From a virus (Duplodnaviria > Heunggongvirae > Uroviricota > Caudoviricetes), in IMG/VR virus record IMGVR_UViG_3300025723_001543, positions 93,307 to 157,306 of that record: 64,000 nt of DNA; one strand, given 5' to 3'. Positions 40,377 to 51,466 of the stretch are shown here, one piece after another. The notes beneath the pieces were generated by a model. The model did not search any database and was not told the origin of the DNA. It was given only the letters and a program-made list of their open reading frames with translations. Position 1 is the stretch's first letter. Each line of letters begins with the position of its first letter. Made by a program: the position numbers and the translations under genes.

Positions 40377-42509
40377 ATGCCATTTCAAGTTAGTCCCGGC
40401 GTTAACGTTTCTGAAATTGATCTAACAACCATTGTTCCTGCCGTTTCTTCAACTTTTGGAGCAACTGCTGGAGTATTCAAATGGGGTCCAATAGAAGACA
40501 GAGTACTTGTGTCATCTGAGGACGAGTTAGTATCAGTTTTTGGAAAACCAAACGCAAATAATTACGAAACCTTCTTCACAGCTGCAAATTTCTTGGCATA
40601 TGGCAATCAGCTATATGTATCAAGAGCAGCTTCAGCCTCCGCATATAATGCCGTCGCTAATGTTGGATCAACAGGTGTAGGTGGAAATACTGTTGTTATT
40701 AAAAATCTTCATGATTTTGAAGCACAATATACTACATTAAATGAAGCTGGTGGTTCAAATGCTTATAGCAATGTTTATTTTGTTGCTAAGTATGCTGGTG
40801 ATGTTGGCAATTCTATAAGAATTTCTATCTGCCCAACAGAAACTGCTTATGCAAGTCAACTTATGGCTTATAATGGGTCAAATGTTGCAATTCAAATTTC
40901 TAATACATATTTTTCATTCAATATTCCAGTAGGATCAATGGAAGCTAATATAGTTTTCCAAAGTGTCACTGACGTAAATCTTGCTCCTTCTATGGCAGTT
41001 GATATGAAGAATAACATTAACATCGGTGATGTGTTTCTTGTAGGTAATACTTCTACTGGAACACAATACTTAACTGTTAGTGCTGTTGGTGGAACAACTA
41101 GTGTTAGTGTTGGTTCAGGAATTAATTCTAGCTTCCAGATAATGTTTAATGAAACTTATAGACAGAAGATGGATATTACAATTTCTGGTACTGCAAATAG
41201 CATCACTGGAAATTATTATGGCACAACTTTAGCCAATAAGTATTGGGAATTTCACAATGCTGTTGATATGGCTCCAGGAACATCTGGATATGTATCATCA
41301 AGAAATGCAAACAACATGGTTATGGATCAAGTCCATATCGTTGTTGTAGATCAAAATGGTAAGTTTACTGGTATTCCCGGTGAAATTCTAGAAGTTTGGC
41401 CAAATCTTTCAATTGCAACTGATGCAAAGGGCGAACAAGGCGGTTCTATTTTCTATAGAGACGTTCTTAATATGAGTTCAAAGTATGTATGGTCTGCAAA
41501 GGACATACTATCAACAACTCCACGCAATGCTGATGATACTCTTCTTGCACCATCTTTAACTAACAATCTTTCTTTGAATTTTGCTAGTGGCGCAGATGGT
41601 GATCCAGAATCTACTATTGCTGTATCAAAGTTAATGACTGCATATGACAAGTATAAGTCATCAGAAGATGTAGATGTTTCTTTGATTCTTGGTGGTAAGG
41701 CAAGAGGAAATATTGGTGAAGTACTCGCAAATTACATCATCGATAATATCTGCGAATATAGGAAAGATTGTGTAGCATTTATTTCACCTGATCTTTCTGC
41801 AGTAGTAAATGTTCCCGGTCATGAGCTAGATAATGTTACAGCTTTTAGAAATGCATTGACTTCAACTTCATATGCAGTTCTTGATTCTGGTTATAAGTAT
41901 CAATATGATAAGTATAATGACACATATCGTTGGGTTCCTCTTAATGGTGATATTGCTGGTCTTTGTGTTCGTACAGATAATGTTCGTGATGCATGGTGGT
42001 CTCCAGCTGGATTCAACAGAGGCATTATCAAGAATGTTGTAAAGCTTGCATACAATCCTGATAAGGCAAATCGTGATGTTCTTTATCGTAATGGTGTAAA
42101 CCCTGTAGTCAATTTCCCCGGTCAGGGAACAGTTCTATATGGTGATAAGACCTTGCTTGCAAGACCATCTGCATTTGATCGTATCAATGTACGCAGACTA
42201 TTCATTGTGCTTGAGAAGGCAATTGCGATTGCTGCTAAGTCAACTCTATTTGAATTCAACGATGATTTTACAAGAGCTTCATTCCGCAATCTTGTAGAAC
42301 CATATCTTCGTGATATTCAGGGTCGTCGTGGAATCTATGATTTCAGAGTAATTTGTGATACTACAAATAACACTCCTGAAGTTATTGATGCAAACGAATT
42401 TAGAGGTGACATTTATATCAAGCCCGCACGTTCAATCAATTTCATTCAGCTCAACTTCGTTGCAGTACGCACTGGTGTCGAGTTTACTGAAATTGTTGGC
42501 AAGTTTTAA
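40377..42509 (+). CDS. 18: tail sheath protein gp18
   Basis: N-terminus VSPGVNVSEIDLTT...AGVFKWGPIEDRVLVSSEDELVSVFGKP...FFTAANFLAYGNQLYVSRA aligns with T4 gp18 (LSPGIELKETTVQS...AGKFQWGPAFQIKQVTNEVDLVNTFGQP...YFMSAMNFLQYGNDLRVVRA). Confidence 0.9.
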   Translation: MPFQVSPGVNVSEIDLTTIVPAVSSTFGATAGVFKWGPIEDRVLVSSEDELVSVFGKPNANNYETFFTAANFLAYGNQLYVSRAASASAYNAVANVGSTGVGGNTVVIKNLHDFEAQYTTLNEAGGSNAYSNVYFVAKYAGDVGNSIRISICPTETAYASQLMAYNGSNVAIQISNTYFSFNIPVGSMEANIVFQSVTDVNLAPSMAVDMKNNINIGDVFLVGNTSTGTQYLTVSAVGGTTSVSVGSGINSSFQIMFNETYRQKMDITISGTANSITGNYYGTTLANKYWEFHNAVDMAPGTSGYVSSRNANNMVMDQVHIVVVDQNGKFTGIPGEILEVWPNLSIATDAKGEQGGSIFYRDVLNMSSKYVWSAKDILSTTPRNADDTLLAPSLTNNLSLNFASGADGDPESTIAVSKLMTAYDKYKSSEDVDVSLILGGKARGNIGEVLANYIIDNICEYRKDCVAFISPDLSAVVNVPGHELDNVTAFRNALTSTSYAVLDSGYKYQYDKYNDTYRWVPLNGDIAGLCVRTDNVRDAWWSPAGFNRGIIKNVVKLAYNPDKANRDVLYRNGVNPVVNFPGQGTVLYGDKTLLARPSAFDRINVRRLFIVLEKAIAIAAKSTLFEFNDDFTRASFRNLVEPYLRDIQGRRGIYDFRVICDTTNNTPEVIDANEFRGDIYIKPARSINFIQLNFVAVRTGVEFTEIVGKF

Positions 42510-42523
42510 GAGGGAGAAATAAA

Positions 42524-43075
42524 ATGGCATTTAATATCAATGAAATTAGATCACAGCTAAAATTTGGCGGTGCGAGAAATTCTCTCTTCCAAGTAATTAT
42601 CAGCAATCCAATTAATCCAGTTGCTGATATTAAAGTTCCTTTCCTTTGTAAGGTAGCTCAAATTCCAAGTTCACAACTTGGTCTAATTGAGGTTCCTTAT
42701 TTTGGAAGAAGACTTAAGATTGCTGGTGATCGTCGTTTTGATCCATGGACAGTAACAATTATCAATGATGAAGATTTTGCTGTAAGAAACGCCATGGAAC
42801 AATGGAACAACTACATCAATCTTTATCAGCAAAATGTTACTGCACTTGCAACAGGTGCTCCATCTGAATATAAGTCACAGGCAACTGTGACTCAGTTTGG
42901 AAAATCTGGAGATGTTCTAAGAACTTATCAGTTCAATGGAATTTATCCAGAATCAATTTCTACAATTGATCTTGCATGGGCAACTGTTGACGAGATTGAA
43001 GAATTCCAAGTAACATTCCAATATGACACATTTCAAATATTGAATGGTCCTACTGGTAATGCTGGTGGTTCCTAA
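42524..43075 (+). CDS. 19: tail tube protein gp19
   Basis: LKIAGDRRFDPWTVTIINDEDFAVRNAMEQWNNYI matches T4 gp19 (INVAGDRTFDDWTVTVMNDEAHDARQKFVDW). Confidence 0.9.
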   Translation: MAFNINEIRSQLKFGGARNSLFQVIISNPINPVADIKVPFLCKVAQIPSSQLGLIEVPYFGRRLKIAGDRRFDPWTVTIINDEDFAVRNAMEQWNNYINLYQQNVTALATGAPSEYKSQATVTQFGKSGDVLRTYQFNGIYPESISTIDLAWATVDEIEEFQVTFQYDTFQILNGPTGNAGGS

Positions 43076-43085
43076 TTAAGTAATC

Positions 43086-43125
43086 GAGAGCCGTTATAAA
43101 TAGAGTATAACGGCTCTCTTTTCTT
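43086..43125 (+). terminator. intrinsic terminator after gp19: perfect 13-bp stem (GAGAGCCGTTATA / TATAACGGCTCTC), 7-nt loop, then TTTTCTT. The stem also contains a late-promoter octamer TATAAATA (43096-43103)
   Basis: Arms 43086-43098 and 43106-43118 are perfectly complementary, with a T-rich tail at 43119-43125. Confidence 0.7.
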
Positions 43126-43141
43126 AAGGAAAAATATTATT

Positions 43142-44749
43142 ATGGTTCAATTATTTGGATATGAAATAAAAAGAAAAAATGAAAAGCCACTTGAGTCCTT
43201 TGCACCAGAGTTAAAGGATGATGGTGCTGTTGTTGTTGCAGCTGGTGGTGCATATGGCACATTCGTTGATCTTGCTGGTACTGCTAGAACCGAATCAGAA
43301 TTAGTTGCAAAATATAGAGAAATTTCTTTACAGCCGGAATTAGAACAAGCCATTGATGATATTGTCAATGAGGCTATGGATGTTGACGCAGAAAAAATCG
43401 TAAGTCTCAACACAGATAAATTAGAATATAGTGATAATGTTAAAAATATTTTTAGAGAAGAATTTGAAAATATACTAGATTTGTTTAATTTTCAAAATGA
43501 AGCTTATGAAATTTTTAAAAGATGGTATATTGATGGTCGTATGTACTATCATGTTATTATTGATGAAAAATCACCAAGAGAAGGTATTAAAGAATTTAGA
43601 TACCTTGATCCTAGAAAAATTCGAAAAATTAGAGAAGTAAAAAGAACTCCAAAAGGTCCAATTACTGTTTTTGATGCAAAAAATGAATATTTTGTGTATA
43701 ATGATAGAACATTTTTGCCAGCTGGTGGTAATGGTGGTCTTCCTATGGATACAAACACATCTGGTTTGAGAATATCAACTGATTCTATTCTTCATGTTAC
43801 ATCTGGCATGATGGATCAAAATAATTCTGTTGTATATTCGTATCTTCAAAAAGCAATTAAACCTCTTAATCAGTTGAGAACACTTGAGGATGCAACAGTT
43901 ATCTATCGTATTTCTCGTGCGCCTGAAAGAAGAATTTTTTATATTGATGTTGGCAATCTTCCAAAAATTAAAGCAGAACAGTATCTTCGTGATATGATGG
44001 TTCGACACAAGAATCGTCTTGTTTATGATGCTGCCAGTGGTGAAGTTCGTGATGATCGAAAGTACATGACTATGCTTGAAGATTATTGGCTACCTCGTCG
44101 TGAAGGAAATCGTGGTACTGAAATTACTACACTTCCAGCTGGACAAAATCTTGGTGAAATGGATGACGTATTATATTTTCAAAAAAGATTATATGATTCA
44201 TTGAATGTTCCTATTTCAAGATTAAACTCTGGTCAGTCAGGATTTAATCTTGGCCGTTCTGCAGAAATTACTAGAGATGAAGTTAAATTTACAAAATTTG
44301 TCGGAAGACTTCGTAGACGTTTTTCTCAATTGCTTCTCAAGGCACTTGAAAAACAATTAATATTAAAAGGTGTTGTTTCTGAAGAAGATTGGCCCGAAAT
44401 TTCTAATAAATTAAATTTTGATTTTCATATTGATAATCATTTTGAAGAATTTAAAGAAGCAGAAGTTATTTCAAATAGAATTAATATTTTAAATCAAATT
44501 CAACCATATATTGGTAAGTATTATTCTGATGAATGGGTTCGCAAAAATGTTCTACATCAAACTGATGAAGAAATTCTTGAAATGATGCAACAGATGGCTG
44601 AAGAACAACCATCACCAGAAACTATGGTTCCTGAAGATGAAGTCAATCAGGGATTAAAATCTATGGAACAACAATCAAAACTACAGAATACGGGTGGTAA
44701 TGCTCCAAAAACAAATTCGAGCATACCAGGTCAAGGTTCTGCGTATTAA
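43142..44749 (+). CDS. 20: portal vertex protein gp20
   Basis: FKRWYIDGRMYYHVIIDEKSPREGIKEFRYLDPR and YRISRAPERRIFYIDVGNLP match T4 gp20 ([54 protein letters not shown]). Confidence 0.9.
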   Translation: MVQLFGYEIKRKNEKPLESFAPELKDDGAVVVAAGGAYGTFVDLAGTARTESELVAKYREISLQPELEQAIDDIVNEAMDVDAEKIVSLNTDKLEYSDNVKNIFREEFENILDLFNFQNEAYEIFKRWYIDGRMYYHVIIDEKSPREGIKEFRYLDPRKIRKIREVKRTPKGPITVFDAKNEYFVYNDRTFLPAGGNGGLPMDTNTSGLRISTDSILHVTSGMMDQNNSVVYSYLQKAIKPLNQLRTLEDATVIYRISRAPERRIFYIDVGNLPKIKAEQYLRDMMVRHKNRLVYDAASGEVRDDRKYMTMLEDYWLPRREGNRGTEITTLPAGQNLGEMDDVLYFQKRLYDSLNVPISRLNSGQSGFNLGRSAEITRDEVKFTKFVGRLRRRFSQLLLKALEKQLILKGVVSEEDWPEISNKLNFDFHIDNHFEEFKEAEVISNRINILNQIQPYIGKYYSDEWVRKNVLHQTDEEILEMMQQMAEEQPSPETMVPEDEVNQGLKSMEQQSKLQNTGGNAPKTNSSIPGQGSAY

Positions 44750-44753
44750 AAAA

Positions 44754-44761
44754 TATAAATA
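44754..44761 (+). promoter_or_regulatory. T4-type late promoter TATAAATA downstream of portal gene
   Basis: Exact octamer 30 nt upstream of ATG 44792. Confidence 0.5.
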
Positions 44762-44791: not shown

Positions 44792-44980
44792 ATGGATAAT
44801 GAGAATCTTGAAAATATTTTAGTACATGCATGGAATAAAGATGCAGTAAATCTACGTGGAGCTTTGGATGCAGAAATGCAAGCCAGAGTTTCTGATCATA
44901 TCGAAGATATGGTAGCTAATGTTTCTGCTAGACTTTTTAATCCATCACTATCAACAACAGATGAGAATCACGAAGGATAA
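44792..44980 (+). CDS. small prohead core protein (gp67/gp68-position)
   Basis: 62-aa ORF with a late promoter, between portal and prohead genes. Confidence 0.3.
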   Translation: MDNENLENILVHAWNKDAVNLRGALDAEMQARVSDHIEDMVANVSARLFNPSLSTTDENHEG

Positions 44981-44986
44981 TTAAAA

Positions 44987-46711
44987 ATGGAAAAGTCAGT
45001 ACGTAACACCATCAACTCCATTATGGAAGTGGCACAGCCTTTGTCACAGGGCGAAATTAATTTTAAGGCGCTTCATGGCGAACCAAAGCCAACAAATAGA
45101 GATATGATTCCTGGGATTACTGACCAAGATTTTATTTTTAATGGTAATCCTCGTAAAGATAATAAACTTCCTGCATCATATCAGAATGGTGAAAATGATG
45201 CATCAAAAGATGTTTATGATAAAAATTTAAAGGTAACACAAAATTATTATCCCCAAAAAGAAGTTGGGGTTAAAGAAGAAGTTGAATCTGTTGAAGAAGC
45301 TATGAAGGGTGAAGATGAATATAATGCTCGTTATGGCGCTGGTGGAAAGAAGCGTTCATCTGATGAAGTAGAAAATTCTTATATGAAGAACAAGGAAAAA
45401 GTTCTTAATAAGTATAATAATAAAAGTAGTGAAAAAGAAGTTTCTGAGCCAGTCAAAGAAGAAATGAAGGGTGAAACTGAATACAATGCTCGTTATGGTA
45501 AAGGCGGAAAAAAGAAGCCAAATCCAGATAAAACAAAAGAAAAAACTGATTGGAAAGAAATTCTTACAAGAAAGAAAGAAGTTTCTGAAGAAGTTGAATC
45601 TATTGAAGAAGAAATATACTCAACTATTAAAACATTCGTTATCGGTGAGTATGGCATTTCAGTACAAGAATCATCAGATATTTATTGTGTAATTAATCCA
45701 GTAAATGAAGATGAGTATTTTACAGAAGATTATAACGATGCGTGTGATACTGCTAAAGCAATTTTAAGAACTATTGTCAAGGAAGCTATCGAAGAAGAAG
45801 AAGCAATTGCTTTAGCTGAAAAGAGAATTGACGTAGAAAAAGCTATGTATGCTCGTTATGTTCCTGGAAAGTTTACAAAAAAGCCAAATAAGTTAAAAGG
45901 AAACCAGAAGGTTCTTGACAAGAATCATAATGGTCATCTTGATAAGCAAGACTTTGAAATGCTTCGTAAGGAAGAAGCAGAAGAGCTTGAAGAAAAGAAT
46001 TGGATTGCTGGTGCTATCAAACATCCTGGTGCTCTAAAGGCTGCAGCAAAACGTGCTGGCGAAACCACATCAGAATATGAGCAAGAACATAAGCATGATT
46101 CTGGTAAAGCTGGAAAACGTGCACGTCTTGCACTTACTTTGAATAAAATGCATGAAAACTATGATGATTCAAAAGAAGAAGTCAGTATGGTTACAACAGA
46201 ACTTAAGTCAATGATCCACGATGCTACAGAACTTCTTAGCAAGATGCCATCACAGATGCATGTAGAACCATGGGTTCAAGCAAAGGTAGCAATGGCAAAA
46301 GCTTCTATCTGTAGTATTCATGATTACATAGTATATGGCAATGTAAATGAAGAAGTAGAACCACTTGATGAAATTTCTCGTGATCTTGCTTCTAGATATA
46401 TTCAAAAAGCTAAAACAAGTACTCGTGGTGCATATTATGGTGATGATGTAAAAACTTCTGGAAAAAGACAAAAAGGAATTGATCTTGCTCTTCTTAAGAA
46501 GTGGGGTGATAAGAAATTTGGTTATCCTGAGCCAAAGGTAAAGGCTACTGAAGAAGTAGTAAATCATGTTGAAGAAGGCGCAGAAGTTGATCGTATGGAA
46601 AGACACATTGAAACAAGTGAAATTAAATCTGGAAAATCGCCAAAGGTAGCAAAACAGATTGCATGGGCTACTATCAATAAACGTGGTATGTTGAAGAAGG
46701 ACGGGAAGTAA
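44987..46711 (+). CDS. large highly charged (K/E-rich) protein with internal repeats; candidate prohead core / internal head protein
   Basis: Repeated modules (E)MKGE.EYNARYG.GGKK x2. Shares a KKEVSEEV segment with the next ORF. Located between portal and protease gp21 (T4 has gp67/gp68 there). Confidence 0.3.
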   Translation: MEKSVRNTINSIMEVAQPLSQGEINFKALHGEPKPTNRDMIPGITDQDFIFNGNPRKDNKLPASYQNGENDASKDVYDKNLKVTQNYYPQKEVGVKEEVESVEEAMKGEDEYNARYGAGGKKRSSDEVENSYMKNKEKVLNKYNNKSSEKEVSEPVKEEMKGETEYNARYGKGGKKKPNPDKTKEKTDWKEILTRKKEVSEEVESIEEEIYSTIKTFVIGEYGISVQESSDIYCVINPVNEDEYFTEDYNDACDTAKAILRTIVKEAIEEEEAIALAEKRIDVEKAMYARYVPGKFTKKPNKLKGNQKVLDKNHNGHLDKQDFEMLRKEEAEELEEKNWIAGAIKHPGALKAAAKRAGETTSEYEQEHKHDSGKAGKRARLALTLNKMHENYDDSKEEVSMVTTELKSMIHDATELLSKMPSQMHVEPWVQAKVAMAKASICSIHDYIVYGNVNEEVEPLDEISRDLASRYIQKAKTSTRGAYYGDDVKTSGKRQKGIDLALLKKWGDKKFGYPEPKVKATEEVVNHVEEGAEVDRMERHIETSEIKSGKSPKVAKQIAWATINKRGMLKKDGK

Positions 46712-46712
46712 T

Positions 46713-48050
46713 ATGGATAAGAAACCAAATTTCGACCAATACAAGAGAGAAAAAGTTGCTTCTTCAAATGATAAACCACAAGCTGGTTCTGCATGGGATG
46801 AACATGGCAGAATGGCAAATTCTAATGTAAAAAATGCTCATTATTTTTGGGATGCAAAATTTCCTGATAAAGAAAGAGCAATGCGCCATGCTGAAAAAGC
46901 TAAGAAACATGCTGCCGATTATGATGCACTCATGAAAAGTGAATGGCCAAAAGGTTATAATAAAAAAACAAATGAAGAAGTAGAACAGATCGATGAAATT
47001 TCTGACAAACTTGCATTAAATTATGCAAAAAGAGCAGAAAAATCTATGGATAATGCAATGGTAAAAGGTTCAGAAGGTCATGAAACTTTTATGAAAAGAT
47101 CAAAAGGACATACTCTTGCTCTTGATAAAATTAATCAAGGATACAAACGTTTAAAAGCAAAAGTTGGAACTAGCGATGCTAATGCTAAAGATGTTGCTTA
47201 TGATAAAGCAGTAAAGGAAGATGTTGATTCTGCTCGTGCTGCACAGCAAAAGGCTAAAGATTATACAGAAATGGGCCATGATGCTGGAAGAATTGGTGAT
47301 GAAAAAGCAATGAGAAGACATTTTGCTAATGCTGCTTTAGAAAAATTAAAAATTAAAGCCGCAATGAAGAAAAAAGAAGTTTCAGAAGAAGTTCTTGATG
47401 AAACAGAATTTAAAAGAGCTGATTTAGAAAGAGCTTCAGCGGCTTTAGATAAAGCAAGAGATACAAATAAAAGAAAAAATCTTGATCCTGATCTTAAGAA
47501 AAGAGCAGAAAATTGGCATAGACAAAATTTTCTTACTAAACAATTAACTTATATGAGAAGTCGTATTGCATCACAAGCACAACCAAGAAATGAAGAAATT
47601 GAAGTAACTTCGGAAGCTCGTGATGATATATTTTTTCATAAAGATGCTTTAGAAGATTTATCTGGAACAATTTCTCGTCTTAAGAAGAGTGGCAAAGCAG
47701 TTCCTGACGATCTTCTTAGACAATTAGATAAACATAAGCAAGCTGTTGCAAGACTGAGAAGTGGTAAATCGAGATTTGCAGAAGATGCAGACCCAACAAC
47801 AATGCAATCAGATAAACGTGATATTATAACTTCTACAAGAATTTCACCTGCAGGAAGAGTGGAACTTTTTAAACGTCACAAACCAAGAAAACAAATTAAA
47901 ATTGGTGAATCAGATGATATGATTGAAGAAAAACTAAATAGATTATATGAAAATCTTTCTGATGAAAATAAAGAAAAATTTATAGAAAAATTAGAAACTG
48001 AAGAAGGCATAATGCAGTTATTTCAGTTTGCAGAAGAACAAGGATTTTAA
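46713..48050 (+). CDS. second highly charged helical protein, paralogous segment to preceding ORF; candidate internal head/scaffold-like protein
   Basis: 445 aa, K/E/A-rich, shared KKEVSEEV motif, translationally coupled to the previous ORF. Confidence 0.3.
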   Translation: MDKKPNFDQYKREKVASSNDKPQAGSAWDEHGRMANSNVKNAHYFWDAKFPDKERAMRHAEKAKKHAADYDALMKSEWPKGYNKKTNEEVEQIDEISDKLALNYAKRAEKSMDNAMVKGSEGHETFMKRSKGHTLALDKINQGYKRLKAKVGTSDANAKDVAYDKAVKEDVDSARAAQQKAKDYTEMGHDAGRIGDEKAMRRHFANAALEKLKIKAAMKKKEVSEEVLDETEFKRADLERASAALDKARDTNKRKNLDPDLKKRAENWHRQNFLTKQLTYMRSRIASQAQPRNEEIEVTSEARDDIFFHKDALEDLSGTISRLKKSGKAVPDDLLRQLDKHKQAVARLRSGKSRFAEDADPTTMQSDKRDIITSTRISPAGRVELFKRHKPRKQIKIGESDDMIEEKLNRLYENLSDENKEKFIEKLETEEGIMQLFQFAEEQGF

Positions 48051-48052
48051 AA

Positions 48053-48304
48053 ATGTCGGCTGTTTATAAATTTTTAGGAACAGAAATTGGATTAAACGGA
48101 ACAGGAAATACTGTTTCTTTATCTAGACTTGTTAGAATAACAAATGCAAACAATACTTTAACTGTTTTATCAGTTGCTAATACAACTGCTACTTATGCTA
48201 ACGTCACACTTACACCATATGAAGTAATAACATTAGAAAAATCTACCACTGATTTACTTACAGGTGTAAATTTAAAAGCCGTTTCAGTAGCATATAGGAA
48301 TTAA
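48053..48304 (+). CDS. hypothetical small protein preceding prohead protease
   Basis: ORF, 83 aa. Confidence 0.3.
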   Translation: MSAVYKFLGTEIGLNGTGNTVSLSRLVRITNANNTLTVLSVANTTATYANVTLTPYEVITLEKSTTDLLTGVNLKAVSVAYRN

Positions 48305-48308
48305 AAAA

Positions 48309-48974
48309 ATGAAACTTATCACAGAATTAAACGAAGATGTAAAATGCATCACGGAAGAAGGAAGAGAAGGGCAAAAGACACTTTATATTGTCGGTCCTTT
48401 TATTCAAACTGAACAAAAAAATAGAAATAACCGTATATATAGAATGGAATCAGTTTCTCGTGAAGTTAAGCGTTATGTAGAAAATTATGTCAATAAGAAT
48501 AGAGCTTTGGGCGAACTAGGTCATCCAGATAGTCCTTCTATGAATCTTGATAGAGTTTCACATTGCATTACAAGCCTTACACAAGAAGGCAATAATTTTA
48601 TGGGAAAAGCTAAGATTCTTAATACTCCAATGGGAAATATTGCTCGCAATCTTATTGAAAGTGGCGTTCAACTTGGTGTTTCTACAAGAGGTATGGGATC
48701 AATTGTAGAAGAAAATGGAGTTCATGTTGTTCAAGACGATTTTTATCTTGCTACAGCAGGTGATATTGTTGCTGATCCTTCCGCACCTGATGCTTTTGTA
48801 AATGGCATCATGGAAGGCGTTGAGTGGATTTGGGACAACGGTATTATAAAGGCTCAGAAGGTAGAAGCAGCTAAGAAGCACATTAATGAAGTAGCTGCCA
48901 AAGTTACACATTCTAAAAAAGAACTTGAAGAAGCAAAGCTGAGAGTATTTCAGCATTTAATTTCAAATTTATAA
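48309..48974 (+). CDS. 21: prohead core protease gp21
   Basis: GPFIQTEQKNRNNRIYRMESVSREV...LGELGHPDSPSMNLDRVSHCIT...AKILNTPMGNIARNLIESG matches T4 gp21 (GPFMEADTINRNKRLYRKNLLESEI...GELGHPSENRINLNNVSHLIK...VQILNTPNGNIARSLLKDG). Confidence 0.88.
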   Translation: MKLITELNEDVKCITEEGREGQKTLYIVGPFIQTEQKNRNNRIYRMESVSREVKRYVENYVNKNRALGELGHPDSPSMNLDRVSHCITSLTQEGNNFMGKAKILNTPMGNIARNLIESGVQLGVSTRGMGSIVEENGVHVVQDDFYLATAGDIVADPSAPDAFVNGIMEGVEWIWDNGIIKAQKVEAAKKHINEVAAKVTHSKKELEEAKLRVFQHLISNL

Positions 48975-49019: not shown

Positions 49020-50066
49020 ATGTCTGACGAACTAAACAATATTGATGATGTAGAAGAAATCACTCTTGAAGAAGATGCTGCTGCATCAAATCAAGCAACA
49101 ATTGCTATGAAGCCAACTGGAATTTCACGTTCTGATTTGATTTCAAAGATGGTTGCTTATGCATCACAACTTGGTAAAGAAGACCTTTCTCAAGCAATTG
49201 AGAAGATGGGAATTCCTGAGCCAGAAGAAATTTTTAACAACAATACAAATCTTGCAACTGGCGATATGTCTGCAAAAAACAAGGCTACTATTAGATCAAG
49301 TAATGCTAAGGGCGATCCTATGCAGTCAGTAAAGGAAGACCTAAATCTTCTTTTTGGTGATTCAACTGATCTTTCTGAAGATTTTCGTATTAAGGTAGGA
49401 ACACTATTTGAAGCTGCTGTTTCAACTAGAGTTGGAATCGAAAACGCTCGTCTAGAAGAAGAATTTGAAGAAAAGCTTGAAGAATCATATATTGAAATTA
49501 AGGAAGATATGATGTCAAATATTGACGCATATCTAAATTATGCAGTAGCAGAATGGGCTTCTGATAATAGACTTGCTATCGAAAACAATATTCGTGCTCA
49601 AGTAACCGAATCTTTTATCAACGGATTGAAGGGTCTATTTGAAGAGCATTATGTTGAAATTCCAGAAGACAAGGTTGATGTTGTTGAATCATTGGCAATG
49701 CGTATCGAAGAACTAGAAACTCTAGTAAACGAAACCACTGCAGATAATATTGAACTTACAAAGCTTGTCAATGAAAAGGAAGTCAGAGAAATTTCTGATA
49801 GCCTAACAGAAGGAATGACTTCAGTACAAAAAGATAAGTTTGTTAAGCTTACTGAAGCTGTGAGTTATTCTGATGCAAATGAATTCCGTAAGAAGGCAAA
49901 TGTCATTAAGGAAACATATTTTGCTGGAAAGAGCGATATCAAGGTTGTTGAAGATCGTCTTCTTAGTGAGAGTGTTGAAGAGCCAGAAATGAACAAGTCA
50001 AATTCAAACATGGATTCTTCTATGCAGATGTATGTTTCTAATCTTTCTAAAACAATTAAAAAGTAA
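49020..50066 (+). CDS. 22: prohead core scaffold protein gp22
   Basis: YLNYAVAEWASDNRLAIENNIRAQVTESFINGLKGLFEEHYVEIPEDKVDVVESLAMRIEELE aligns with T4 gp22 (FLDHLAKEWLAENKLAVDKGIKAELFESMLGGLKELFVEHNVVVPEESVDVVAEMEEELQE). Confidence 0.85.
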   Translation: MSDELNNIDDVEEITLEEDAAASNQATIAMKPTGISRSDLISKMVAYASQLGKEDLSQAIEKMGIPEPEEIFNNNTNLATGDMSAKNKATIRSSNAKGDPMQSVKEDLNLLFGDSTDLSEDFRIKVGTLFEAAVSTRVGIENARLEEEFEEKLEESYIEIKEDMMSNIDAYLNYAVAEWASDNRLAIENNIRAQVTESFINGLKGLFEEHYVEIPEDKVDVVESLAMRIEELETLVNETTADNIELTKLVNEKEVREISDSLTEGMTSVQKDKFVKLTEAVSYSDANEFRKKANVIKETYFAGKSDIKVVEDRLLSESVEEPEMNKSNSNMDSSMQMYVSNLSKTIKK

Positions 50067-50113: not shown

Positions 50114-51466
50114 ATGAACCCTCTAAATGAAGAACTAATTGCTAAGTGGAAGCCCCTTCTTGAACATCCTGATCTTCCAAAGATCACTGATATGCATCGT
50201 CGTAATACAACTGCACAGCTTCTTGAAAATACAGAAAGAGCTATCCGTGAACAGGCTGCTTTCAACCCACAGTCACTTCTAACTGAAACTGGCATCAATG
50301 CTGCCGGAACTGGTGGATACGGTGGAGCTGGTGGTGCTGGCGTTGCTGGTTACGACCCAATCCTTATCTCACTTATTCGTCGTTCTGTTCCTAACCTTAT
50401 TGCTTATGATATCTGCGGCGTTCAGCCAATGACTGGTCCTACTGGACTTATCTTCGCAATGCGTTCACAGTATGCTAACAGCACTGCAAAGGGCAACGAA
50501 ACATTCTATGATGAAGTTCTAACTAACAACTCAACTATTGCTTCTGGTGCAAATACAATCGGCAACGCACAGACTGGTACTTCAGGTGCATTTGCTGGTG
50601 CTTCAGGCGCTGATGCTTATAACTTTGCTCAAGGCATGACTACTTCACAGTCAGAAGGTCTTGGATCAAATTATACATTCCCTGAAATGGCATTCAGCAT
50701 TGATAAGGTTTCTGTAACTGCTCGTAGCCGTGCGCTAAAGGCAGAATACACTATGGAACTTTCTCAAGATTTGAAGGCAGTTCATGGTCTAGATGCTGAA
50801 ACAGAACTTGCTAACATTCTTCAGTCAGAAATTCTTGCTGAAATCAATCGTGAAGTAGTTCGTACAATCAACCTTTCTGGCGTTTCTGGCGCTCAGTATG
50901 GCACAACAACTCCCGGCGTATTCGATCTTGATACTGACTCAAACGGTCGTTGGTCAGTTGAAAAGTTCAAGGGTCTTATGTTCCAGATTGAAAGAGAAGC
51001 TAACCAGATTGCCAAGGACACTCGTCGTGGTAAGGGTAACATCATCATCTGTTCTTCTGACGTTGCTTCAGCTCTTCAGATGGCTGGTGTTCTTGACTAC
51101 ACTCCTGCTCTTGCTTCAAATAACCTACAGGTAGATGACACTGGTAATACTTTCGCTGGTATTCTCAATGGTCGTTTCCGTGTTTACATTGATCCTTATA
51201 CCACTGGCAACTATGCCACTATCGGTTATAAGGGTGCAAATGCATTTGACGCTGGTATCTTCTATTGCCCATACGTTCCTCTACAGATGGTTCGTGCAGT
51301 TGGTCAAGATACATTCCAGCCAAAGATTGGATTCAAGACTCGTTACGGAATGGTCGCAAACCCATTCGCCCGTTCAGTTGTTGGATCACCTAATCTTTCA
51401 GACGGAACTATCATAAGCAACTCAAATGGTTACTATCGTAGAGTTATTGTCAACAATATTCTCTAA
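50114..51466 (+). CDS. 23: major capsid protein gp23
   Basis: YDPILISLIRRSVPNLIAYDICGVQPMTGPTGLIFAMRSQY matches T4 gp23 (...PMVRRVFPRLIAHDLVSVQPM...). GC-richer codon usage typical of a highly expressed gene. Confidence 0.9.
   Translation: MNPLNEELIAKWKPLLEHPDLPKITDMHRRNTTAQLLENTERAIREQAAFNPQSLLTETGINAAGTGGYGGAGGAGVAGYDPILISLIRRSVPNLIAYDICGVQPMTGPTGLIFAMRSQYANSTAKGNETFYDEVLTNNSTIASGANTIGNAQTGTSGAFAGASGADAYNFAQGMTTSQSEGLGSNYTFPEMAFSIDKVSVTARSRALKAEYTMELSQDLKAVHGLDAETELANILQSEILAEINREVVRTINLSGVSGAQYGTTTPGVFDLDTDSNGRWSVEKFKGLMFQIEREANQIAKDTRRGKGNIIICSSDVASALQMAGVLDYTPALASNNLQVDDTGNTFAGILNGRFRVYIDPYTTGNYATIGYKGANAFDAGIFYCPYVPLQMVRAVGQDTFQPKIGFKTRYGMVANPFARSVVGSPNLSDGTIISNSNGYYRRVIVNNIL

What the first reader, a model, noticed from the sequence alone, without database searches (positions are those of the whole stretch)
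44987..48050. Two large paralogous, extremely charged proteins inserted between portal and prohead protease
T4 has the small core proteins gp67/gp68 between gene 20 and gene 21. Here, besides a 62-aa ORF, there are 574-aa and 445-aa K/E-rich helical proteins. They share modules (KKEVSEEV; duplicated MKGE.EYNARYG.GGKK) and contain many L/I-x-E motifs resembling gp21 protease cleavage sites. Both are transcribed from the late promoter at 44754. They could be scaffold-like core components or injected internal proteins (anti-restriction / host takeover, analogous to T4 IPs and Alt).
Basis: inference. Interest (0 to 1): 0.5.

Follow-up and report, generated by a model that had tools for sequence, protein, structure and literature searches.

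The report
Split modular phage head-cargo polyprotein
Two adjacent genes of an uncultured T4-like phage are the two halves of one fast-evolving, beads-on-a-string protein whose family carries the N-terminal address tag that T4 uses to load proteins into its head, so it is probably loaded into the head and cut by the head protease into small proteins that travel with the DNA.

Summary
The two ORFs (574 aa, 445 aa) are real. They lie between the portal and the prohead protease, and they are the two most charged of 50 large ORFs in the window. They are not paralogues. In about half of 51 related metagenomic loci the same frame is a single 570-1040 aa gene, which starts like ORF574 and ends like ORF445. 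Raw [LI]xE counts are at chance (7 vs 7.5; 5 vs 4.2), so that part of the finding fails.

The placement of the sites is informative:
- All 79 distinct N-terminal leaders in the family end in aliphatic-x-Glu.
- The commonest leader (MKTFKQLIxE) closely resembles the T4 IPII/IPIII capsid-targeting sequence MKTYQEFIAE.
- Modules are joined by acidic linkers (EEVExIDE) that AlphaFold models as low-confidence.
- The conserved C-terminal tail always keeps at least one of two adjacent LxE sites.
- Gene fission happens exactly at linkers.

The locus is far more variable (19-43%) than its neighbours (79-90%). My best reading (0.6) is a head-targeted cargo precursor in the gp68 slot, processed by the prohead protease. 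All the evidence is computational. No match exists in 50,697 deposited phage records, and no module has a known function. I rate it a new variant of a known kind.

The parts
44754..44761 (+). TATAAATA, a T4-type late-promoter-like octamer upstream of the 62-aa ORF
   Evidence: The five + strand copies between 40 and 51 kb each lie about 40-55 nt upstream of a structural gene start (gp18, gp20, orf62, gp22, gp23). No terminator-like hairpin lies between 43118 and 51525.
44792..44980 (+). orf62: a small acidic protein directly after the portal, and a weak T4 gp67 (prohead core) analogue
   Evidence: It is conserved directly downstream of the portal in 70 of 88 loci. A profile of 13 homologues against T4 gp67 gives hhalign E = 0.008, residues 15-49 vs 10-44. 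It was not recognised by Pfam GP67.
44987..46711 (+). ORF574: the first half of the split modular protein (leader, head domain and about 8 modules)
44987..45028 (+). N-terminal leader MEKSVRNTINSIME (aa 1-14), ending in I-M-E; a variant resembling the capsid-targeting sequence
   Evidence: In 79 of 79 distinct family leaders P1 is Glu and P3 is aliphatic (I 51, L 16, V 10, M 2). The modal 10-aa form is MKTFKQLIxE, against T4 IPII/IPIII MKTYQEFIAE. Residues 13-17 have low pLDDT.
45029..45277 (+). Conserved 'head' domain (aa 15-97, VAQPLSQGE...PGITDQD...ASY...YDK.LKV)
   Evidence: Alignment A1. It is found in only 53 representative clusters of 1.84 billion proteins and always at the N-terminus. 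It is distantly related to the 85-aa protein AAY80_013 of Stenotrophomonas phage DLP_6 (hhalign E = 5.6e-5).
45278..45610 (+). Acidic linker, then two MKGE.EYNARYG.GGKK repeat modules, each preceded by EEVESVEE / EVSEPVKEE and followed by EEVESIEE (aa 98-208)
   Evidence: DNA repeats D1 and D2. Residues 80-104, 147-162 and 199-208 have low pLDDT.
45611..45871 (+). Well-folded alpha/beta module (aa 209-295; four strands plus a long helix, pLDDT about 90-95)
   Evidence: It has no significant fold match in the PDB or BFVD.
45872..46162 (+). EF-hand-like loop (aa 296-336, sub-threshold) and the DUF3008-like / phrog_20603 helical hairpin (aa 337-392), the most widely shared module
   Evidence: Pfam EF-hand_7 gives E = 0.013, below the cut-off. 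phrog_20603 gives 2.3e-8. About 100 of 146 hits cover residues 337-390. DUF3008 and EF-hand are significant in some homologues.
46163..46708 (+). Modules F, G and H (aa 393-574). G (aa 463-530) is the module shared with ORF445. The linkers are NEEVEPLDE and TEEVVNHVEE.
   Evidence: In fused relatives module H is followed by the linker REEVESIDE, whereas in ORF574 it is followed by a stop codon.
46713..48050 (+). ORF445: the second half of the split modular protein; it starts 1 nt after the ORF574 stop, in another frame
   Evidence: P0121 is 95% identical over the full length, so the split is conserved and is not a sequencing error.
46998..47222 (+). Module K (aa 96-170, ISDKLALNYAKRAEK...), related to module G of ORF574 and preceded by the linker NEEVEQIDE
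   Evidence: DNA repeats D3 and D5. It is 73% identical to a module of the cyanophage-like contig protein in L010.
47910..48047 (+). Conserved C-terminal tail (aa 400-445), preceded and opened by IGE, IEE and LYE sites; a candidate C-terminal targeting propeptide
   Evidence: It is present at the C-terminus of all fused members and all second halves. All 26 distinct variants keep at least one of two adjacent LxE sites.
48053..48304 (+). orf83: a conserved beta-rich small ORF 5-20 nt upstream of the protease gene (function unknown)
   Evidence: phrog_19805, unknown function, E = 8e-4.
48309..48974 (+). Prohead protease (gp21 type, Peptidase_S77), the presumed processing enzyme
   Evidence: The gp23 propeptide site is L-x-E in every related locus examined.

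Best explanation
ORF574 and ORF445 are the two halves of one modular, fast-evolving head-cargo precursor that occupies the gp68 slot of the T4-type head operon: portal, gp67-like ORF, this gene, small ORF, protease, scaffold, MCP.

Shown from sequence:
- The gene is single in about half of the relatives and split at a linker in the rest.
- Family members start with a short leader that ends in aliphatic-x-Glu. In its commonest form the leader closely resembles the T4 IPII/IPIII capsid-targeting sequence.
- They end in a conserved tail of about 40 aa that is preceded by LxE.
- Between these ends lie interchangeable small modules, mostly helical and mostly basic, joined by low-confidence acidic linkers of consensus K-E-E-V-E-x-[LIV]-[DE]-E.

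Inferred:
- The genes are transcribed late with the head genes.
- ORF574 enters the assembling prohead core through its leader, and ORF445 through the C-terminal tail.
- The gp21-type protease removes both signals and cuts at least the [LI]xE linkers. This would release fragments of about 5-20 kDa that stay with the packaged DNA and enter the host with it, like T4 internal proteins.
- The hypervariability suggests these fragments act on the host, in counter-defence or takeover, or bind DNA.
- The repeated linker DNA may also serve as a joint for cassette exchange.
For: Synteny:
- 81 of 84 loci have the portal directly upstream, and 51 have the protease downstream.
- 27 are fused and 24 split.
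- Fused relatives start like ORF574 and end like ORF445.

Leader:
- In 79 of 79 distinct leaders P1 is E and P3 is I, L, V or M.
- The 10-aa consensus MKTFKQLIxE compares with T4 MKTYQEFIAE, read from NC_000866.
- This agrees with published data that CTS residues 4 and 7 direct targeting and residues 8 and 10 direct processing (PMC9026906).

Protease specificity:
- The gp23 maturation site is L-x-E in all related loci.
- T4 gp21 cleaves after L/I-x-E (PMC9026906).

Linkers:
- The composite motif E[ED]?[VIA]x1-3[LI]xE occurs 307 times against 28 in shuffles of 102 non-redundant proteins.
- Linkers coincide with segments of pLDDT below 50, and the [LI]xE P1 residues at 14, 208 and 462 (ORF574) and at 95, 230 and 399 (ORF445) sit at the C-terminal edges of those segments.

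C-terminal tail:
- The two adjacent sites LY[EDN] and L[ST][EDN] never both lose Glu: 18, 5, 3 and 0 of 26 variants. Fisher p is about 0.0009 by my own calculation.
- Asp at P1 is known to block T4 processing (PMC9026906).

Gene fission at linkers:
- Second halves start M-SSLGYHQF, where fused proteins read ...EEVESIDE|SKLGYHQF.
- First halves stop where fused proteins carry REEVESIDE.

Hypervariability:
- In the closest relatives, identity times coverage is 79-82% for the portal, 90% for gp19, 86% for gp21 and 83-90% for gp23.
- It is 19-43% for ORF574 and 21-34% for ORF445.
- Cassettes are gained, lost and reordered.

Other:
- Predicted fragments are mostly basic, pI 8-10.
- Linker DNA is repeated at up to 96% identity.
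Against: - There is no experimental datum. Nothing similar exists in 50,697 deposited phage records, so no virion proteome can be consulted.
- The overall [LI]xE count is at chance in both ORFs and in the wider set.
- About a third of the linkers with a scorable downstream Glu have V rather than L or I at P3, whereas the gp23 site is always L.
- Depletion of [LI]xE inside modules (0.76x) is matched by the control [LI]xD (0.82x), so there is no clear site avoidance.
- ORF574's own leader is a 14-aa variant without the aromatic residue at position 4.
- ORF445 has no leader, so its targeting rests on an untested C-terminal signal.
- The AlphaFold models are of modest quality (mean pLDDT 64; pTM 0.23-0.28).
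- No module has a known function, and no fold match is significant.
- The motif statistics use related sequences, so they overstate independence.
Confidence: 0.6

Rival explanations
1. It is an auxiliary scaffold or core protein, a gp68-like assembly factor. It is built into the prohead core and cut by the protease into peptides that leave the head before DNA packaging. It has no role after injection, and the modules are only bulky filler or size-determining elements.
For: - It has the same genomic slot as T4 gp68, next to a gp67-like ORF.
- T4 gp22, gp67 and gp68 are cut into several fragments that mostly leave the head (PMC9026906).
- It is highly charged and helical like gp22.
Against: - It is extremely variable compared with the true scaffold gp22 in the same loci: 19-43% against 49-80%.
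- Cassettes are gained, lost and reordered.
- Cultured relatives with similarly large genomes (phiM12, 194.7 kb; DLP_6, 168.5 kb) have only 56-261 aa ORFs here, so the bulk is not needed for assembly.
- There is no detectable similarity to T4 gp68 (hhalign E = 0.71).
- The fragments are basic, like the retained internal proteins.
Confidence: 0.2
2. It is a head-targeted protein that is trimmed only at its ends, leader and/or tail, and stays a long flexible multi-domain chain. The acidic EEVE linkers are then only spacers and recombination joints, not cleavage sites.
For: - The strongest constraints lie at the two ends.
- Many internal linkers carry V, F or no aliphatic residue at P3.
- Linker DNA is repeated and could drive cassette exchange.
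- The overall [LI]xE count is at chance.
Against: - After the acidic core, L, V and I are 3.4-4.3x enriched at P3.
- V and I alternate at the same linker position (for example AVDEA|MKGE against EISEA|MKGE), and V occurs at P3 of the leader itself in 10 of 79 cases.
- Natural gene fission at linkers shows the pieces can work as separate polypeptides.
Confidence: 0.13
3. It is not a virion or prohead component at all. It is a late-expressed cytoplasmic or secreted multi-domain protein that merely sits in the head operon.
For: - There is no direct evidence of packaging.
- Some relatives carry unrelated genes in the same gap, such as a glycosyltransferase in UFOVP245.
Against: - The position is invariant between the portal and the protease in 81 of 84 loci.
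- The leader, with an invariant cleavage-type end, is always at the extreme N-terminus.
- LxE is retained by compensation at the tail.
Confidence: 0.05

Closest known systems
T4 internal proteins IPI, IPII, IPIII (and Alt) with their capsid-targeting sequence
   Same: - Late gene.
- An N-terminal leader of about 10 aa ending in I/L-x-E. The family consensus MKTFKQLIxE compares with T4 MKTYQEFIAE.
- Basic mature parts.
- Strong polymorphism between related phages.
- As in Alt, there is a possible second, C-terminal propeptide.
   Different: - T4 internal proteins are separate small genes elsewhere in the genome, each with its own leader. Here up to about 10 modules share one leader and one tail in a 570-1190 aa chain, or in two chains, inside the head operon.
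- The mature parts have no sequence similarity to the T4 proteins.
- ORF574's own leader is a 14-aa variant.
T4 prohead core proteins gp67 and gp68
   Same: - The same genomic slot between gene 20 and gene 21.
- orf62 resembles gp67 weakly.
- gp68 also combines an acidic N-terminal part rich in [LI]xE sites with a very basic C-terminal part.
   Different: - No detectable sequence similarity to gp68.
- It is 4-8 times larger, modular, and hypervariable.
Polyvalent proteins of phages and conjugative elements (Iyer, Burroughs, Anand, de Souza, Aravind 2017, PMC5512222)
   Same: - Many unrelated domains strung in one polypeptide.
- Encoded next to virion genes and proposed to be packaged and delivered with the DNA.
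- Domains shuffle between elements.
- One module-sharing relative (P0093) carries a HicA toxin domain next to a Zeta-toxin protein.
   Different: - Polyvalent proteins are defined by enzymatic and anti-restriction domains and often by embedded peptidases.
- The window proteins have no recognisable enzymatic domain and would rely on the separate prohead protease.
- That paper notes a paucity of polyvalent proteins in cyanobacteria (its lineage survey) and did not describe this family.
Inner-body / ejection proteins of phiKZ, 201phi2-1 and SPN3US, processed by a gp21-related protease
   Same: Many head-internal proteins are cut after Glu at short motifs, with redundant sites in the propeptides (PMC9026906).
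   Different: They belong to a different phage lineage, are encoded by different genes, and use a different motif (S/A/G-x-E, from my own knowledge). They are not arranged as a single cassette array.

Membership tests
T4-type internal proteins (CTS-bearing head cargo) | An N-terminal leader of about 10 aa resembling MKTYQEFIAE and ending in L/I-x-E | tested here: met
   The family has 33 of 79 leaders of exactly 10 aa, with consensus MKTFKQLIxE. In 79 of 79, P1 is E and P3 is aliphatic. ORF574 itself has a 14-aa variant ending in I-M-E. ORF445 has none.
T4-type internal proteins (CTS-bearing head cargo) | Cleavage of the leader by the prohead protease | not testable with these tools
   Only indirect evidence exists: the protease gene lies 0.26 kb downstream, and the gp23 site L-x-E is conserved.
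T4-type internal proteins (CTS-bearing head cargo) | Presence in the mature head and injection with the DNA | not testable with these tools
   No cultured phage carries the gene, and no proteome is available.
T4-type internal proteins (CTS-bearing head cargo) | A small basic mature protein | tested here: inconclusive
   The precursors are large and near neutral (net -9 and +10). Most predicted fragments are 5-20 kDa with pI 8-10, but this depends on unproven cleavage.
T4 gp68 prohead core protein | Gene between gp67 and gp21 | tested here: met
   Gene order is portal, orf62 (weakly gp67-like, E = 0.008), ORF574/ORF445, orf83, protease.
T4 gp68 prohead core protein | Sequence similarity to gp68 | tested here: not met
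   hhalign of the head-domain profile against T4 gp68 gives E = 0.71. BLASTP finds nothing.
T4 gp22-type scaffold (Pfam T4_CASP) | Match to the T4_CASP profile | tested here: not met
   Neither ORF gives a Pfam hit. The true gp22 is present separately at 49020-50066 (2.6e-60).
Polyvalent proteins (Iyer et al. 2017) | 2-15 distinct domains in one phage polypeptide encoded with the virion genes | tested here: met
   There are about 9 and about 8 modules by homology breaks and AlphaFold segments, within the head operon.
Polyvalent proteins (Iyer et al. 2017) | Enzymatic or anti-restriction effector domains (ART, ArdC-N, MuF, PBECR and others), often with an embedded peptidase | tested here: not met
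   The window proteins have no significant Pfam domain. Homologues show only EF-hand or dockerin loops, DUF3008 and Zn ribbons. HicA occurs only in a distant module-sharing protein of another phage lineage.

The most novel reading that the evidence does not exclude
Uncultured aquatic T4-like phages package a 'cassette array': one or two precursor chains that carry a T4-type targeting leader and a C-terminal anchor. The prohead protease cuts them at standardised acidic linkers into up to about ten different mini-proteins that are injected with the DNA as a multi-pronged counter-defence or takeover kit. The same linkers, repeated at the DNA level, act as joints that let cassettes be swapped, also with an unrelated lineage of 160-175 kb phages.
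Probability: 0.3. Interest if true: 0.8.

Novelty: new variant of a known kind. Interest (0 to 1): 0.6.

Why it matters
T4 internal proteins are the classic example of phage proteins delivered with the DNA to defeat host defences. Outside the T-even phages they are almost unknown, because their mature parts are not conserved. This family shows that the T4-type targeting leader exists in distant aquatic T4-like phages. There it is attached to a large, rapidly shuffling array of small modules in the middle of the most conserved operon of the genome.

If processing and injection are confirmed, three things follow:
- It would give a sequence rule (leader plus linker) for finding injected phage proteins in metagenomes.
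- It would provide a large set of candidate anti-defence mini-proteins.
- It would offer a natural design for loading several cargos into T4-type capsids with a single tag.

Tried and rejected
- **Deposited phage genomes.** Megablast and tblastn of both ORFs, and tblastn of the cyanophage-like relative P0148, against 50,697 deposited phage records found no match.
- **Domain searches.** Pfam and PHROGs on the two ORFs gave only a 59-position PHROG of unknown function (phrog_20603) and sub-threshold EF-hand hits.
- **Fold searches.** Foldseek against the PDB (both models) and against BFVD (ORF574) gave nothing at E <= 0.001. Only short helical-hairpin phage proteins of unknown function matched locally.
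- **[LI]xE enrichment.** Rejected, because the counts equal the expectation from composition.
- **Avoidance of [LI]xE inside modules.** Inconclusive. The ratio is 0.76x, but the control [LI]xD is 0.82x and the reversed motifs are enriched, which is a general helix bias.
- **BLAST endpoints as module borders.** Too noisy to use as a test.
- **Single-linkage clustering of inter-linker segments.** It collapsed into one cluster and was abandoned. It was replaced by mapping the window's own modules onto the relatives.
- **Homology to T4 gp68.** Not detected.
- **Third word-indexed homologue search, with the head-domain profile.** It returned only short unnamed fragments.
- **Other leader-bearing ORFs in the 64-kb window.** None were found.
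- **Literature.** The pelagimyophage metagenome paper does not describe this region. No paper in the library links capsid-targeting sequences to marine T4-like phages.
- **Frameshift or sequencing error as the cause of the split.** Rejected. A 95%-identical 445-aa protein and several other second halves share the same start.
Full report
**What is in the window.**
The region lies in a T4-type late structural operon on the + strand:

| Feature | Coordinates | Evidence |
|---|---|---|
| Tail sheath | 40377-42509 | |
| Tail tube | 42524-43075 | |
| Portal | 43142-44749 | Portal_T4, 1e-176 |
| 62-aa acidic ORF | 44792-44980 | |
| ORF574 | 44987-46711 | |
| ORF445 | 46713-48050 | |
| Prohead protease | 48309-48974 | Peptidase_S77, 2e-32 |
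| Scaffold | 49020-50066 | T4_CASP, 3e-60 |
| Major capsid protein | 50114-51466 | |

- TATAAATA occurs at 44754-44761. Identical octamers lie about 40-55 nt upstream of gp18, gp20, gp22 and gp23.
- Convincing terminator hairpins occur only after gp19 and after gp23.
- ORF445 starts one base after the ORF574 stop, in another reading frame.
- The two proteins are the most charged of the 50 large ORFs of the window: 39.1% and 35.7% K+R+D+E, against a median of 25.2%.
- AlphaFold2 models them as mostly helical.

- The shared KKEVSEEV and the duplicated MKGE.EYNARYG.GGKK are real and also visible as DNA repeats.
- 'Paralogous' is only weakly true. BLASTP finds a single shared module of about 52 aa (574:453-502 against 445:86-137; 44% identity, E = 3e-5).
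- 'Many L/I-x-E motifs' is not true as a count: 7 observed against 7.5 expected from composition, and 5 against 4.2. The scaffold gp22 has 14 against 7.

**Relatives, and what the two ORFs really are.**
- No deposited phage genome of 50,697 has anything similar.
- The portal is at most 60% identical to cultured phages: Stenotrophomonas DLP_6, the Sinorhizobium phiM12 group, and cyanophages at about 50%.
- Metagenomic protein collections hold 169 and 57 homologous clusters. Hits cover different short stretches at high identity, which is a mosaic pattern.
- Reading the best hits shows proteins of 750-1000 aa that begin like ORF574 (M.KSVLSTIGSIME-VAQPLSQGE...) and end like ORF445 (...EEKLNRLYESLSEKNKVKFMEKLETEEG..FAEEQGF).
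- The genomic context is invariant. In contigs of 160-290 kb the gene sits between the portal (plus a 62-75 aa ORF) and an ORF of about 82 aa plus the protease.
- A scan of IMG/VR with the N-terminal domain returned 79 loci. Together with the earlier loci:
  - 81 of 84 have the portal directly upstream;
  - 51 reach the protease downstream;
  - among these 51, 27 carry a single ORF of 570-1040 aa and 24 carry two ORFs, as in the window.
- The split is conserved: P0121 is 95% identical to ORF445 over its full length.
- The two ORFs are therefore the halves of one gene, not duplicates.

**The N-terminal leader.**
- I located the conserved head domain (..P.S.GE) and read what precedes it. This gave 79 distinct leaders.
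- All 79 end in Glu. Two residues before the Glu is I (51), L (16), V (10) or M (2).
- The modal length is 10 aa (33 leaders), with consensus M-K-T-F-K-Q-L-I-x-E.
- T4 IPII and IPIII, read from NC_000866, both begin MKTYQEFIAE. A member such as MKTFNEIIAE differs from this at three positions.
- Published mutagenesis assigns CTS residues 4 and 7 to targeting and residues 8 and 10 to processing by gp21. It also shows that gp21 cuts after L/I-x-E (PMC9026906; PMC3012670).
- ORF574 carries a 14-aa variant, MEKSVRNTINSIME. Residues 13-17 have low pLDDT.
- The head-domain profile matches only 53 of 1.84 billion representative proteins, always at the extreme N-terminus.
- The protease specificity seems conserved: the gp23 maturation site is L-x-E in every related locus.

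**Linkers and modules.**
- Modules are joined by acidic linkers of consensus K-E-E-V-E-x-[LIV]-[DE]-E.
- In 102 non-redundant homologues the composite motif E[ED]?[VIA]x1-3[LI]xE occurs 307 times against 28 in shuffles. About half of all [LI]xE sites lie in it.
- In the more divergent IMG/VR set, 193 of 276 acidic cores have a scorable downstream Glu. Among these 193 the P3 residue is L (46), V (37) or I (33), each 3.4-4.3x enriched.
- The AlphaFold low-confidence segments coincide with these linkers:
  - ORF574: 80-104, 147-162, 199-208, 453-464, 514-528;
  - ORF445: 77-95, 221-231, 290-298, 392-401.
- The canonical P1 Glu residues at 208 and 462 (ORF574) and at 95, 230 and 399 (ORF445) sit at the C-terminal edges of these segments.
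- One module (ORF574 209-295) is a confident alpha/beta fold. The rest are helical hairpins and one beta-hairpin.
- No fold match is significant.
- Cutting at [LI]xE, with or without the V-x-E linkers, gives fragments of roughly 5-20 kDa, mostly with pI 8-10.
- Recognisable module types in relatives are only EF-hand or dockerin calcium loops, DUF3008 and zinc ribbons.

**The C-terminal tail.**
- The last 40 residues or so are conserved in all fused proteins and all second halves.
- At its start lie two adjacent candidate sites, L-Y-[E/D/N] and L-[S/T]-[E/D/N].
- Among 26 distinct variants, 18 keep Glu only at the second site, 5 only at the first, 3 at both, and none at neither. By my own Fisher calculation p is about 0.0009, although the variants are not independent.
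- Asp at P1 blocks T4 processing (PMC9026906). The pattern therefore fits selection for at least one cleavable site, as for the C-terminal propeptide of T4 Alt.
- It also offers an explanation for the split. ORF574 keeps the leader and ORF445 keeps the tail, so each half may retain one targeting signal. This is inference.

**Fission at linkers.**
- One class of second halves starts M-SSLGYHQFEVEY. In fused proteins the same module is preceded by ...EEVESIDE|SKLGYHQF.
- First halves end ...AWATxNKRGxLxxGK-stop. Fused proteins continue at that point with the linker K-R-E-E-V-E-S-I-D-E.
- The gene therefore breaks where the protease is predicted to cut, which shows the pieces can work as separate polypeptides.

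**Variability.**
- Identity times coverage in the closest relatives:

| Protein | Identity x coverage |
|---|---|
| Portal | 79-82% |
| gp19 | 90% |
| gp21 | 86% |
| gp23 | 83-90% |
| gp22 | 49-80% |
| ORF574 | 19-43% |
| ORF445 | 21-34% |

- At 72-74% portal identity, the value for the cargo falls to 4-18%.
- Mapping the window's 17 modules onto relatives shows a fixed frame (head domain ... tail) with cassettes gained, lost and sometimes reordered.
- Linker DNA is repeated within the locus: GAAGAAGTTGAATCTGTTGAAGAAG occurs in five copies at 72-96% identity, and a 24-mer is shared by both ORFs at 92%. This could promote cassette exchange.

**Comparison with cultured relatives and T4.**
- T4 has 20-67-68-21.
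- The 62-aa ORF family aligns weakly with gp67 (hhalign E = 0.008). It shares gp67's position, size and acidic C-terminus.
- The head domain shows no similarity to gp68 (E = 0.71).
- DLP_6, phiM12 and P-HM2 have only 53-261 aa ORFs in this gap.
- DLP_6 AAY80_013 (85 aa, annotated as a holin) begins MSQKTYNDLINE-VAPAVSP and matches the head domain (E = 5.6e-5).
- phiM12 gp058 begins MKSFKQLVE-TVNAPRSEAERNF.
- So a minimal leader-plus-head-domain protein is ancestral to this slot, and the uncultured aquatic clade has expanded it.

**Interpretation and limits.**
- Taken together, the position, the leader, the linkers, the tail and the variability best fit a head-targeted precursor processed by the prohead protease. 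Its pieces would behave like T4 internal proteins (confidence 0.6).
- Internal cleavage at every linker is less certain. V is frequent at P3, whereas the gp23 site is always L, although V also occurs at P3 of the leader itself.
- Site avoidance inside modules is not demonstrable: 0.76x against 0.82x for the control.
- A purely scaffold-like role is less likely because of the variability and because large-genome relatives do without the bulk.
- Everything here is computational. No proteome exists for any carrier of the gene.
- The nearest published concept, polyvalent proteins (PMC5512222), shares the logic. However, it is defined by enzymatic domains and embedded peptidases that are absent here.
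- I found no paper describing this family.

Noticed in passing
window 48053-48304: An 83-aa beta-rich ORF sits 5-20 nt upstream of the protease gene. tblastn detects it in 30 of the 88 searched sequences with hits (29 of them next to a detected protease), and it is also present in a cyanophage-like contig (L010, 90 aa). T4 has no counterpart. The only hit is a PHROG of unknown function (phrog_19805).
   Followed up: partly
window 44792-44980: The 62-aa acidic ORF directly after the portal is conserved in 70 of 88 loci. It aligns weakly with T4 gp67 (hhalign E = 0.008) but is not recognised by Pfam GP67, so gp67 may be more widespread than the annotations suggest.
   Followed up: partly
L008 6001-9554; L009 6001-8268; L011 6001-7413: Contigs of 160-175 kb from a non-T4 phage lineage (no Portal_T4, Peptidase_S77 or gp23 nearby) encode proteins with other N- and C-terminal frames. 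They share the same modules and the same EEVExLxE linkers. These include a perfect tandem duplication of DUF3008-like module plus linker (P0024) and a HicA toxin module next to a Zeta-toxin protein (P0093). A second K/E-rich mosaic protein follows each. The type of phage and of protease is unknown.
   Followed up: partly
L001 7858-8115 (Stenotrophomonas phage DLP_6, AAY80_013): This protein is annotated as a holin, but it begins with a CTS-like leader (MSQKTYNDLINE) and matches the head domain of this family (hhalign E = 5.6e-5). It is probably a prohead core or internal protein that has been misannotated. The next gene (261 aa) begins MKTWNQFKSQLPIHE and ends ...QRGF, resembling the family's leader and tail.
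   Followed up: partly
window 43086-43118: The strong terminator-like hairpin after the tail tube gene (13 bp stem, T-run) contains a TATAAATA late-promoter octamer (43095-43102) within its stem-loop, 40 nt upstream of the portal start. Termination and late initiation signals overlap.
   Followed up: no
L007 4623-5747 (uncultured Caudovirales phage UFOVP245, LR798287): A 374-aa glycosyltransferase gene is inserted between the portal and the small gp67-like ORF in this freshwater relative, so the gap tolerates unrelated insertions.
   Followed up: no
window 46250-46744, minus strand: A 164-aa antisense ORF overlaps the end of ORF574. It is rich in F, L, I and C, as expected for the reverse complement of a K/E-rich gene, and is most likely spurious.
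   Followed up: no
L004 (JGI 3300042927, contig Ga0480411_0000002): The contig carrying a close relative is 290 kb, whereas other close relatives are about 195-202 kb. It may be a concatemer or misassembly, or a larger genome.
   Followed up: no
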